The notes under the pieces are model-generated. The model made no database searches. It was not told the DNA's origin and was given only the letters and a program-made list of their open reading frames with translations. From an uncultured Gemmatimonadales bacterium (lineage in GTDB: Bacteria > Gemmatimonadota > Gemmatimonadetes > Gemmatimonadales > GWC2-71-9), in the NCBI GenBank assembly GCA_963796635.1, contig CAWCMH010000001.1, positions 2,788,209 to 2,852,208 on the forward strand: a stretch of DNA of 64,000 nt. Reading direction: 5' to 3'. A program made the position numbers and the translations under genes. Positions 45,834 to 47,097 of this stretch are shown in pieces. Each line of letters opens with the position of its first letter. Position 1 is the stretch's first letter.

Positions 45834-46804
45834 CAGAACCCCCAAGACCAGAGGCGGTCATGGTACGGATCGGTCTTCGGTGAGGCGCCGACCCAACCGC
45901 CGAAGTCATTTCCTGACCAGTAGCACTCCTGGTTCGCCGCATACACCGGATTGTACGAATGTACACAATCGAGGAACTCGTACGAGCTGGAGCCAACATT
46001 GTCGCCGGCCGATAATACACGCGTCGCGTTGCTGGAACAAACCTCGAATCCTCCCATCCCTAGTACGCATTCGCTGTGGTCGCCGTAGCCCGCGTGCTTG
46101 AGATACGAAATGTATACCGTCGGTGCGCCGCCGGACACGCTCGCGTAATCGATGTTCGGGTAGGTGCCCATCACGCTGATTGCGTTACAATACGGTGAGC
46201 CGCCGTTCGCACACTTGTGGTCGTATCCGTAGTGCTCGGAGTAGTACGCTGCACCCAATATCCAATGGCTCGTTACGGAGTCGAAGTAGACGTCTTCAAC
46301 GATCACCTCCGAATCACCATAATGGCCGCAGGTGTCCCAAGTGTAGCTCAGTGGATACACGCCGCAATACGCCGTCCCACCATCCACATAGTAGCTCGGC
46401 ATGTACATGATCTCGACCATGTAGATACCGTACATGTTGGTGCCCAGCGGCCGCGCTGCGAACCTGGGCTCGCCATCAATATTGTCCGCAGTCGAATAAT
46501 ACAAGGTCGGTTCGAAGGCTACCGCCAAACTACTCTCACACATATCGGCTAATCCATCTTGATCTCCGTCTGAGTACTCATCCGTATTCTGACAGTTGGC
46601 CTTGGAGATTACCGATGTTAGGTAGTAACCTGCGGAGTCGGGATAGGGATCAACGTCGTGGCACCCCTCAACGCAATCAGGGTTGCCAGCGCGACGATCG
46701 ATGCTTCTGTTAGGCACGAGTACCGGAACGCTAGAGCATGCTGTGAGAAGCGCCAAAACCACACCTGCCAATAATGCGCCAGACGGGGGGGGGGGGGGAA
46801 ACAA
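45833..46804 (-). CDS. Cys/Tyr-rich lipoprotein ending in WGF, unknown family (as-sequenced ORF from TTG 46804)
   Basis: Lipobox LLTAC, 12 further Cys, very Tyr/Gly/Asp-rich. Paralog of 21828-22348. The better start (AAGGAG-N5-ATG at 46817) is out of frame by one nt across the poly-C tract. Confidence 0.65.
   Translation of the reverse strand: MFPPPPPSGALLAGVVLALLTACSSVPVLVPNRSIDRRAGNPDCVEGCHDVDPYPDSAGYYLTSVISKANCQNTDEYSDGDQDGLADMCESSLAVAFEPTLYYSTADNIDGEPRFAARPLGTNMYGIYMVEIMYMPSYYVDGGTAYCGVYPLSYTWDTCGHYGDSEVIVEDVYFDSVTSHWILGAAYYSEHYGYDHKCANGGSPYCNAISVMGTYPNIDYASVSGGAPTVYISYLKHAGYGDHSECVLGMGGFEVCSSNATRVLSAGDNVGSSSYEFLDCVHSYNPVYAANQECYWSGNDFGGWVGASPKTDPYHDRLWSWGF
46785..46798. repeat. Homopolymer G14 (C14 on the coding strand) at the 5' end of the WGF lipoprotein gene
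   Basis: Counted directly: agac + 14 g + aaac. Confidence 0.9.
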
Positions 46805-47097
46805 ATGTCGCTTTCATCGGAACTCCTTGAGAGGTGCAGAACGAGAGGTTGCGAGCGGCCGTGTGCCTTGTGCCCAGGAGGGCCGCACCGATGATGATAT
46901 GTTAGCTCCGACGGCTCAACGTACGCAAGGCGATCGCCGGTGCAGGCCAGGTTGTGGGCCTCGCGGATTCTGAACTTGCAAGGCACTCGGGAGAGTGCTG
47001 CATCGTGCTGTACGACCTCTCGTGACGTCGCGCGCGGCATGACGTAAGCTTGGCGTTGGCGGCGCCAGGTCTGCGTCTCCCCGCTATAATCCCGCCC

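What the first reader, a model, noticed from the sequence alone, without database searches (positions are those of the whole stretch)
46785..46828. G14/C14 homopolymer between a strong RBS+ATG and the lipoprotein ORF: candidate phase-variation switch
On the coding (minus) strand the sequence reads AAGGAG-ttccg-ATG AAA GCG ACA TTT GTT T-C14-G TCT GGC. The ATG at 46817 has a textbook Shine-Dalgarno and would give a proper lipoprotein signal peptide with a basic n-region (MKATFVSPPPP.GALLAGVVLALLTAC). With 14 C the ATG frame terminates after 28 codons, and the long ORF is only reachable from a weak TTG at 46804 with no basic n-region. With 13 or 16 C the ATG would be in frame. A homopolymer of this length at the 5' end of a surface-protein gene is the classic slipped-strand ON/OFF arrangement known from Neisseria, Haemophilus, Campylobacter and Bordetella. 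Caveat: other genes in this window show indels at short homopolymers, so the tract length as recorded may itself be wrong.
Basis: partly seen in the sequence, partly recalled or inferred. Interest (0 to 1): 0.7.

Follow-up and report, generated by a model that had tools for sequence, protein, structure and literature searches.

The report
Frame-shifting C-run in lipoprotein gene start
A run of 14 identical bases sits between the start codon and the export signal of a lipoprotein gene on a small, recently acquired DNA island in a soil Gemmatimonadales bacterium; it most likely works as a slippage-driven on/off switch, a familiar mechanism in pathogens that has not been described in this phylum, though actual switching is not shown.

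Summary
G14 (+) / C14 (coding strand) lies at 46785-46798, 13 nt after a perfect AAGGAG-N5-ATG. The next-longest homopolymer in 64 kb is 7. The ATG is in frame only at C10/13/16. At C14 it yields 28 aa.

New evidence:
- An independent assembly (L001) from a strain with ~12% divergent flanks carries the same 1.6 kb island, 100% identical except that the tract is C15.
- The closest relative (L035) has no island: ligase and SpoU methylase genes are 37 nt apart.
- A 37%-identical homologue (L008/L024) is also frame-broken at a 5' C10 run. Two others carry in-frame C8 runs there (enrichment P~0.002).
- All-CCC encoding is improbable by codon usage.
- The ORF is maintained (pN/pS 0.31).

Best reading (~0.55): a slipped-strand ON/OFF switch, possibly leaky through RNA-polymerase or +1 ribosomal slippage.

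Not shown: within-population heterogeneity, reversibility, or any ON allele. Both recorded lengths are OFF. Homopolymer mis-calling cannot be excluded, although the assembly is sound apart from clustered frame breaks in the island's two flanking genes.

The mechanism is known, so this would be a new member of a known kind, in Gemmatimonadales, in a large unannotated lipoprotein family.

The parts
46785..46798 (-). C14 homopolymer (G14 on + strand), the putative slippage tract; in the ON frame it encodes S-P-P-P-P in the signal-peptide n-region
   Evidence: Its length is C15 in the independent assembly L001.
46823..46828 (-). Shine-Dalgarno AAGGAG, 5 nt upstream of the ATG
   Evidence: SD-like motifs are rare at ORF starts in this window (4 of 26 candidate starts), so this perfect hexamer marks a genuine start.
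46815..46817 (-). ATG start codon; in frame with the lipoprotein ORF only at tract lengths 10, 13 or 16
46802..46804 (-). TTG, the only start codon in frame with the long ORF at C14; it lies 18 nt from the SD and gives no basic n-region
46731..46733 (-). TAG that ends the ATG frame after 28 codons in the C14 allele
46736..46784 (-). Signal-peptide h-region and lipobox (SGALLAGVVLALL-TAC; Cys codon 46738-46736)
   Evidence: The lipobox Cys is conserved in all full-length homologues.
45833..46735 (-). Mature part of the lipoprotein (unannotated family). It has a TSP3-like DxDxDGxxDxCE motif and the invariant motifs GHxGDSE and KHA
   Evidence: pN/pS is 0.31 against the orthologue, and P(no stop by chance) is 3e-6.
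45519..45833 (-). Small (104 aa) Gly/Ala-rich predicted membrane protein gene. Its ATG overlaps the lipoprotein stop (TGATG), so it is probably translationally coupled
   Evidence: A gene of similar size occupies the same position in L002, L040 and L041. Sequence similarity is not significant.
45465..47079 (.). 1,615 bp low-GC (~56%) island carrying the two genes and their upstream region, inserted between the ligase stop codon and the SpoU methylase promoter; absent from the closest relative
   Evidence: It is 100% identical to L001 apart from the tract.

Best explanation
The C14 run is a hypermutable homopolymer placed between the real start (AAGGAG-N5-ATG) and the hydrophobic core of a lipoprotein signal peptide. 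Slipped-strand mispairing during replication adds or removes C residues. Lengths of 10, 13 or 16 join the ATG to the 327-aa lipoprotein (ON). Lengths of 14 or 15 end translation after 28 or 66 codons (OFF), and through the TGATG overlap probably also reduce expression of the small downstream membrane protein. The two-gene cassette sits on a 1.6 kb island that has recently spread between diverged Gemmatimonadales strains. Because the tract is C-only, OFF alleles may leak a little through RNA-polymerase slippage or through +1 or -1 ribosomal slippage of tRNA-Pro on CCC-C. Shown here: the tract, the frames, the ON/OFF arithmetic, the length difference between assemblies, the island, and the parallel case in a homologue. 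Inferred: that length changes occur at high frequency and reversibly in a population, and that switching is selected for.
For: 1. The tract is a 14-mer where the next-longest run in 64 kb is 7. It exceeds the G/C cut-off of 7 or more used for phase-variable genes (PMC6321876). Runs of about 10 or more are generally selected against in prokaryotes, and N-terminal placement is the proposed signature of phase variation (PMC3315296).
2. The frame logic holds: ON at C10/13/16, with two distinct OFF frames.
3. L001, a Logan assembly of ERR11594399 from a strain whose flanks differ ~12% at wobble positions, has an island identical over 1,638 bp except for C15 instead of C14. So the tract changed while about 1.6 kb accumulated no substitution.
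4. The homologue in L008/L024 (37% identity) has its signal peptide (MRRVRFWLSPLVILLTGC) separated from the mature frame by a frame-breaking C10 run.
5. L003 and L010 carry in-frame TCC CCC CCC runs at the same post-lipobox position.
6. Excluding the window, 30 non-redundant loci hold 3 G/C runs of 8 or more in 7.0 kb of 5' coding sequence, against 0.26 expected (Poisson P=0.0024).
7. Codon usage makes an all-C encoding of S-P-P-P-P improbable, at about 0.003 (CCC 29% of Pro codons, TCC 14% of Ser codons).
8. The 70% orthologue (L002) and all other full-length homologues have ordinary tract-free signal peptides, so the tract is a lineage-specific gain.
9. The downstream ORF is intact and constrained (pN/pS 0.31; P(no stop)=3e-6; all family-invariant residues present).
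10. In the second near-identical pair (L008 vs L024, 99.9% over 4 kb), the only indel is again at a long tract: GC+G13 vs G14.
Against: No read-level data were available, so heterogeneity within one population is untested. Both recorded alleles are OFF, and no ON-length protein exists among about 15 billion database proteins. With only two observations that is weak evidence, since the chance of two OFF alleles is about 4/9 if states were random. A 14-15 nt homopolymer is error-prone on every platform, and the sequencing technologies behind the window and L001 are unknown. L008 is a low-coverage assembly (cov 4.7), and L024 is probably the same population, so the C10 break is effectively one observation. 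Another homologue (L009) is broken at a non-repeat site and L016 near a G5 run, so broken copies of this family also arise in other ways. Five further family loci have no 5' tract. No paper in the searched library connects Gemmatimonadota with SSR phase variation. How mismatch repair acts on such tracts in this organism is unknown.
Confidence: 0.55

Rival explanations
1. Length mis-call: the true tract is 13 or 16 in both strains, the gene is constitutively in frame, and the 14 vs 15 difference is a homopolymer sequencing or assembly error. The tract would then simply encode a short poly-proline stretch in the n-region.
For: Long G/C homopolymers are the classic failure mode of long-read and, to a lesser degree, short-read sequencing (general knowledge). 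The window has six frame breaks in the adjacent ligase and SpoU genes, so its consensus is locally imperfect. The two assemblies disagree, so at least one could be wrong. In the L008/L024 pair the only indel is also at a long tract.
Against: Outside the two flanking genes the assembly is good. LeuRS, GyrA, AcrB, urocanase and FTCD are full length, and only about 1-3 suspicious frame switches occur in 61 kb. The island matches L001 perfectly at every other base. Two independent mis-calls would both have to miss the in-frame lengths. Even if the true length were 13 or 16, a tract that long would be expected to slip at high frequency (PMC6321876; PMC3315296), so the switch behaviour would remain. 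Codon usage argues that the run is not just an incidental Pro stretch.
Confidence: 0.2
2. Recent pseudogene: the accessory lipoprotein gene was switched off by tract slippage and is simply decaying, so the tract is a mutational accident and not a maintained switch.
For: Both known alleles are out of frame. The island is accessory and absent from the closest relative. Other family members are also found broken (L009, L016). The flanking genes look damaged too.
Against: The 323-codon ORF after the tract has no stop (P=3e-6) and keeps every family-invariant residue. Two diverged strains carry the identical island, which implies recent spread of the cassette and does not fit abandonment. The two alleles are in different OFF frames, so the tract has moved at least once since they separated. 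The 5' placement, the all-CCC encoding and the recurrence in homologues are not expected for random decay.
Confidence: 0.12
3. Recoding at a fixed length: the gene is expressed from the ATG by +1 ribosomal frameshifting of tRNA-Pro on CCC-C, or by RNA-polymerase slippage, so C14 is the functional allele and expression is set at the RNA or translation level.
For: At C14 a +1 slip is exactly what restores the frame. CCC-C is a documented +1-prone motif with no energetic penalty for tRNA-Pro, reaching ~1% near the start codon in E. coli (PMC4519876). Consecutive Pro codons stall ribosomes (general knowledge). Homopolymers of 8 or more promote transcriptional realignment (PMC3711429).
Against: Programmed sites are conserved in length, yet here two copies of an otherwise identical island differ (14 vs 15), and C15 needs a different shift. 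No stimulatory structure is present: the region folds less well than shuffled sequence (z=+2.1) and has no Rfam hit. Homologues use ordinary uninterrupted signal peptides. Reported efficiencies for unprogrammed CCC-C slippage are low.
Confidence: 0.06
4. The TTG at 46804 is the true start, C14 is the native in-frame state, and the SD-ATG upstream is coincidental; the protein begins MFPPPPPSGALL...
For: At C14 the TTG frame gives the complete 323-aa ORF.
Against: The TTG lies 18 nt from the only SD and has none of its own. Its product lacks the basic n-region present in homologues. A perfect AAGGAG-N5-ATG is unlikely by chance in a genome where SD motifs are rare. The source annotation did not use the TTG either and called an internal Met instead (P0001, 236 aa). 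In L001 (C15) the TTG frame is broken.
Confidence: 0.05

Closest known systems
Translational phase variation by poly-G/C tracts in the 5' coding region of surface-protein genes (e.g. Neisseria pilC, with its G-tract in the signal-peptide coding region; the Campylobacter jejuni poly-G phasome)
   Same: A homopolymeric G/C run sits inside the ORF close to the start. A change of one base shifts the frame, and one length class in three gives the full product. The gene encodes an exported envelope protein. The tract exceeds published cut-offs (PMC6321876). The pilC detail is from my own knowledge.
   Different: The host is a free-living, high-GC, uncultivated soil Gemmatimonadales and not a host-adapted pathogen. 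Switching frequency, reversibility and phenotype are untested. The tract (14-15) is longer than most characterised C. jejuni and Neisseria tracts. It is a single locus on a small accessory island, with no evidence yet of a genome-wide phasome.
Mycoplasma fermentans P78 lipoprotein, whose phase variation comes from a poly-A tract in the N-terminal coding region (Theiss & Wise 1997, as cited in PMC3711429)
   Same: A lipoprotein gene is switched by a frameshift in a homopolymer at its 5' end, and it is the first gene of an operon, so downstream expression can be affected.
   Different: The tract is poly-A and not poly-C. The organism is a wall-less, low-GC pathogen. The protein family and operon (ABC transporter) are unrelated.
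Reversible homopolymer frameshifts in high-GC Mycobacterium tuberculosis (e.g. the glpK 7C tract; the SSR survey in PMC13596474)
   Same: G/C homopolymers in a high-GC genome act as reversible frameshift sites.
   Different: Those tracts are short (about 7), lie within metabolic or regulatory genes, and act in drug tolerance. Here the tract is twice as long and sits at the extreme 5' end of an envelope lipoprotein gene.
Unprogrammed +1 frameshifting of tRNA-Pro at CCC-C (PMC4519876, PMC7577736)
   Same: [quoted passage not shown]
   Different: That phenomenon is a translational error at about 1% or less, not a heritable switch. Here it is proposed only as a source of leakiness.

Membership tests
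SSR-mediated translational phase-variable gene (contingency locus) | Repeat tract at or above the length known to be hypermutable (G/C of 7 or more; PMC6321876) | tested here: met
   C14 in the window and C15 in L001.
SSR-mediated translational phase-variable gene (contingency locus) | Tract lies within the reading frame, so that a change of one unit shifts the frame and one of three frames gives the full-length product | tested here: met
   The in-silico length series C10-C18 gives 326-328 aa at 10/13/16 and otherwise 27-29 or 65-67 aa.
SSR-mediated translational phase-variable gene (contingency locus) | Tract length differs between closely related sequences while the surrounding DNA is conserved | tested here: met
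   C14 vs C15 is the only difference in 1,638 bp between the window and L001. Caveat: a sequencing error at the homopolymer cannot be excluded.
SSR-mediated translational phase-variable gene (contingency locus) | High-frequency, reversible length changes within a clonal population, with both ON and OFF states present | not testable with these tools
   No read-level data were available. Only two alleles are known and both are OFF. No ON-length protein was found in the protein database.
SSR-mediated translational phase-variable gene (contingency locus) | Switching changes a phenotype, typically an envelope or surface structure | not testable with these tools
   The product has a lipoprotein signal peptide, but its function and surface exposure are unknown.
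Bacterial lipoprotein (Lgt/LspA substrate) | Signal peptide with a basic n-region, a hydrophobic h-region and a lipobox [LVI][ASTVI][GAS]C | tested here: met
   The ON frame reads MKATFVSPPPPSGALLAGVVLALL-TAC. The lipobox Cys aligns with that of all full-length homologues.
NEP1-like (NLP/NPP1) toxins | Match to Pfam NPP1, or a significant fold match to NLP structures with the GHRHDWE cation-binding motif | tested here: not met
   None of 51 members hits NPP1 even at E<=10. The best Foldseek hit, 3st1, has E=0.27 and TM 0.19-0.27. The profile finds no PDB sequence relative. Only a loose motif resemblance remains (GHxGDSE).
Programmed ribosomal frameshift / transcriptional slippage site | Slippery sequence conserved in length among strains and homologues, usually with a stimulatory element | tested here: not met
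   The length differs (14 vs 15) between identical islands. Homologues lack the tract. No structure is present (z=+2.1) and there is no Rfam match.

The most novel reading that the evidence does not exclude
A true contingency locus in a free-living, uncultivated soil Gemmatimonadales. A poly-C tract gates a lipoprotein/membrane-protein cassette that is spreading horizontally as a 1.6 kb mini-island. Similar 5' poly-C tracts have arisen independently in other members of the same large (about 1,100 cluster representatives), completely uncharacterised lipoprotein family. This would suggest that the family's product is under fluctuating selection, for example as a phage or predator target or a contact-dependent factor, and that SSR phase variation operates in soil phyla where it has not been described.
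Probability: 0.4. Interest if true: 0.55.

Novelty: new member of a known kind. Interest (0 to 1): 0.4.

Why it matters
Homopolymer-driven phase variation is textbook biology in host-adapted pathogens, but it is essentially undocumented in free-living soil phyla such as Gemmatimonadota. A full-text search linking the phylum with phase variation found nothing relevant. If the tract does switch, stochastic surface variation is also used in soil communities, plausibly against phages or predators. It would also flag an unannotated lipoprotein family (1,110 cluster representatives, confident AlphaFold model, no known fold or family match) as ecologically important. There is a practical point too. 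Gene callers mis-annotate such loci, and here the gene was called from an internal Met as a 236-aa fragment, so contingency loci in MAGs are systematically hidden.

Tried and rejected
- An exact look-up of the 323-aa TTG product found nothing on record. The source annotation uses an internal Met (P0001).
- A metagenome scan for the upstream flank plus C8 gave 0 hits. Look-ups of P0001 and of the small downstream protein returned DNA only for L001; both are also recorded on the source's 3.2 Mb contig, which was not returned. No further alleles are therefore available.
- The source genome is not among the GTDB representatives, and no accession or name could be recovered. ERR11594399 is not mentioned in the paper library.
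- NLP-toxin homology, suggested by the top Foldseek hit and a motif resemblance, was rejected. There is no NPP1 hit in 51 members and the Foldseek E-value is 0.27.
- I asked whether family members that start abruptly at MCQxGC/MAGFC are also 5' frame-broken. All five checked (L038-L042) have in-frame upstream signal peptides and no homopolymer, so they are gene-caller artefacts.
- Sequence conservation of the small downstream protein is not significant by tblastn. Only its position is conserved.
- There are no sigma-70 promoter or intrinsic terminator consensus hits in 45300-47300, no Rfam family and no tRNA.
- No convincing terminal repeats or target duplication bound the island. The short repeats found are compatible with chance in GC-rich DNA.
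- A uniformly poor assembly was rejected: the frame breaks are local.
- Nucleotide alignment to L035 at 75-82% identity is too noisy to place each SpoU frameshift exactly.

Full report
**1. What is there**

The + strand of the window carries G14 at 46785-46798. On the minus (coding) strand the sequence reads AAGGAG (46828-46823), ttccg, ATG (46817), AAA GCG ACA TTT GTT T, C14, then G TCT GGC. The ATG frame stops at TAG 46733-46731 after 28 codons. The long ORF (45833..46804, 323 aa) opens at TTG 46804. An explicit length series shows that the ATG is in frame at C10, C13 or C16. The product then begins MKATFVSPPPPSGALLAGVVLALLTAC, with a basic n-region, a hydrophobic core and the lipobox LTAC. 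Lengths 11/14/17 give a 27-29 aa peptide and lengths 12/15/18 give 65-67 aa.

The tract is not a chance feature. The next-longest homopolymer in 64 kb is 7, and run counts drop about 5-fold per added base.

**2. The gene and its family**

The protein matches no Pfam or NCBIfam family and no PDB sequence. A word-indexed search found only 10 relatives. An exhaustive profile search found 1,110 cluster representatives at E<=1e-3 and 436 at E<=1e-30. This is a large, unannotated family.

All full-length members have lipoprotein signal peptides. Invariant features include a TSP3-like DxDxDGxxDxCE motif, GHxGDSE, KHA and several Cys residues. A 51-sequence alignment gave a confident AlphaFold model (pLDDT 85, pTM 0.81), but Foldseek found nothing significant in the PDB. 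The best hit was an NLP toxin at E=0.27, and Pfam scans of all 51 members gave no NPP1 hit. The function stays unknown.

The source annotation called this gene from an internal Met (P0001, 236 aa). That is what a gene caller does when the 5' end is out of frame.

**3. Organism and genomic context**

GyrA's best named relatives are all Gemmatimonadales. The window is ordinary chromosome, with LeuRS, GyrA, AcrB, urocanase, FTCD and a Ser/Thr kinase all showing full-length domain coverage.

In the closest relative (L035; GyrA 97%, LigD-polymerase 85%) the neighbourhood is syntenic: FTCD, LigD-pol, ligase, SpoU methylase, EamA, MacB, PadR. The ligase stop and the SpoU start there are only 37 nt apart. 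Homology to the window ends at 45464 and resumes at 47080. The lipoprotein gene, the small overlapping downstream gene (45519-45833, TGATG overlap) and 262 nt of upstream DNA therefore form a 1,615 bp island (45465-47079). Its GC content is about 56%, against 67% for the window. No integrase, tRNA or convincing terminal repeats are associated with it.

**4. The key comparative result**

L001 is a 2,077 bp Logan contig from run ERR11594399 and carries the same island at the same site. Its ligase and SpoU flanks differ from the window by roughly 7-13%, mostly at codon position 3, so it comes from a different strain. From 45450 to 47087 the two sequences are identical at every base except the tract, which is C15 in L001.

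Either the tract mutates far faster than the rest of the island, or one or both assemblies mis-call it. Neither recorded length puts the ATG in frame, and the two fall in different OFF frames.

**5. Parallels in homologues**

The 70% orthologue (L002) has an uninterrupted ORF from GAGGAG-N9-ATG with a normal signal peptide and no tract. The tract is therefore a lineage-specific gain.

In L008, and in the 99.9%-identical L024, a 37%-identical homologue has its signal peptide MRRVRFWLSPLVILLTGC followed by a C10 run that breaks the frame. The conserved mature frame opens only at the run and has no start codon of its own. L003 and L010 have in-frame TCC CCC CCC runs at the same post-lipobox position.

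Across 30 non-redundant loci, excluding the window, there are 3 G/C runs of 8 or more in 7.0 kb of 5' coding sequence, against 0.26 expected from the rest of the same loci (P=0.0024). CCC is only 29% of Pro codons and TCC 14% of Ser codons in this genome, so all-C encoding of these Ser-Pro stretches is improbable.

There are also counter-examples. L009 is broken at a non-repeat site, and L016 near a G5 run in a Nanopore-derived MAG. Five members that looked 5'-truncated proved to be in frame and tract-free. Tracts are thus recurrent in this family but not general.

**6. How far to trust the number 14**

The ligase has single-base losses at about 45115 and about 45432. The second is confirmed against L001 (AAGGCG becomes AAGCG). 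The SpoU gene changes frame about four times. Both genes are intact in L035.

A codon-usage frame tracker found only about 1-3 other suspicious switches in the remaining 61 kb. The frame errors cluster in the strain-variable DNA flanking the island, and the island itself is error-free relative to L001. My inference is that this pattern reflects a consensus built from mixed strains, and not generally poor base-calling. That remains untested. The tract length itself stays uncertain by one or two bases on any platform.

**7. Mechanism**

The best-supported reading is slipped-strand ON/OFF switching at the DNA level. The tract exceeds the operational cut-off for phase-variable G/C repeats and lies within the ORF with one productive frame in three (PMC6321876). 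Long runs are normally purged from prokaryotic genes, and N-terminal placement is the proposed signature of phase variation (PMC3315296).

The ORF downstream is maintained (pN/pS 0.31 with synonymous sites saturated; P of 323 stop-free codons 3e-6). That argues against an old pseudogene.

OFF alleles may leak. At C14 a +1 ribosomal slip restores the frame, and CCC-C is a documented +1-prone motif for tRNA-Pro (PMC4519876). Homopolymers of 8 or more also promote transcriptional realignment (PMC3711429). A dedicated recoding site is unlikely, because the length is not conserved and there is no stimulatory structure or Rfam match.

**8. What is not shown**

Three things are untested: heterogeneity within one population, reversibility, and any phenotype. 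No ON allele has been observed. The phrase 'surface protein' is an assumption. The product is a lipoprotein whose topology is unknown.

**9. Verdict**

This is a real, highly non-random 5' homopolymer with the full anatomy of a translational phase-variation switch. Supporting evidence includes an inter-strain length difference and an independent parallel in a homologue, on a recently spread mini-island.

The mechanism is well known, so the finding counts as a new member of a known kind. Interest is moderate. The setting is new (soil Gemmatimonadales, an unannotated lipoprotein family), but the decisive read-level evidence is missing.

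Noticed in passing
window 45465-47079: The lipoprotein operon is a 1,615 bp low-GC insertion between the ligase stop and the SpoU promoter. It is absent from the closest relative (L035), yet 100% identical (apart from the tract) in a strain whose flanks are ~12% divergent (L001). This implies very recent horizontal spread of a two-gene cassette with no recognisable mobility gene or terminal repeats.
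   Followed up: yes
window 44429-45464 (ligase) and 47099-47850 (SpoU/TrmH methylase): Six or more frame disruptions cluster in the two genes flanking the island (about 45115, about 45432, about 47260, about 47435, about 47715, about 47757). Both genes are intact in relative L035, and the rest of the window is nearly free of such breaks. This is possibly a consensus artefact where reads from island-bearing and island-free strains mix, or it may be real decay.
   Followed up: partly
L008 3353-3367 / L024 65-78: A second long tract lies about 45-100 nt upstream of a small Cys-rich membrane ORF on the opposite strand (L008 3012..3311). It reads GC+G13 in L008 and G14 in L024, and is the only indel between these 99.9%-identical sequences. 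It is a possible promoter or 5'UTR-type variable tract, about 550 bp from the C10-broken lipoprotein homologue.
   Followed up: partly
window 45833-46735 and proteins P0002-P0157: This is a large unannotated lipoprotein family (1,110 cluster representatives), mostly Gemmatimonadales and Longimicrobiales with a few Myxococcota. It has a TSP3-like Ca-binding motif and the invariant motifs GHxGDSE and KHA. The AlphaFold model is confident (pLDDT 85), but there is no significant PDB fold match and no Pfam family.
   Followed up: partly
window ~34537 (ORFs 33612..35123 and 34552..36294, + strand): Coding potential switches frame at about 34537 while the upstream frame stays open for another 584 nt. 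This is a likely frameshift, or a fused or split gene, unrelated to the finding.
   Followed up: no
window 47085-47101; also upstream of ORF 30393..31673 (-): TATAAT boxes lie 3-7 nt before start codons (SpoU: TATAAT-N7-GTG, conserved in L035), and few genes have SD motifs (4 of 26). This suggests frequent leaderless or SD-independent initiation in this organism.
   Followed up: no
L006 8364-8372: A G9 run (minus-strand coding, P-G-G-G, in frame) lies about 35 codons after the lipobox of a different lipoprotein gene in another Gemmatimonadales MAG. This is another long G/C run in the 5' part of a lipoprotein gene.
   Followed up: no
window 33571-33577: The second-longest homopolymer of the window (C7) lies about 35 nt upstream of the ATG of ORF 33612..35123.
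   Followed up: no
window 21337-22434: This ~1.1 kb stretch has no coding signal in the frame tracker and a locally low GC content (0.61). It has no Rfam or tRNA match.
   Followed up: no
L038-L042, L002 and P0001: Gene callers repeatedly start this family's genes at the conserved internal Met of the P-M-C-x-x-G-C motif, dropping the signal peptide even when the 5' end is intact. Database N-termini for this family are therefore unreliable.
   Followed up: yes
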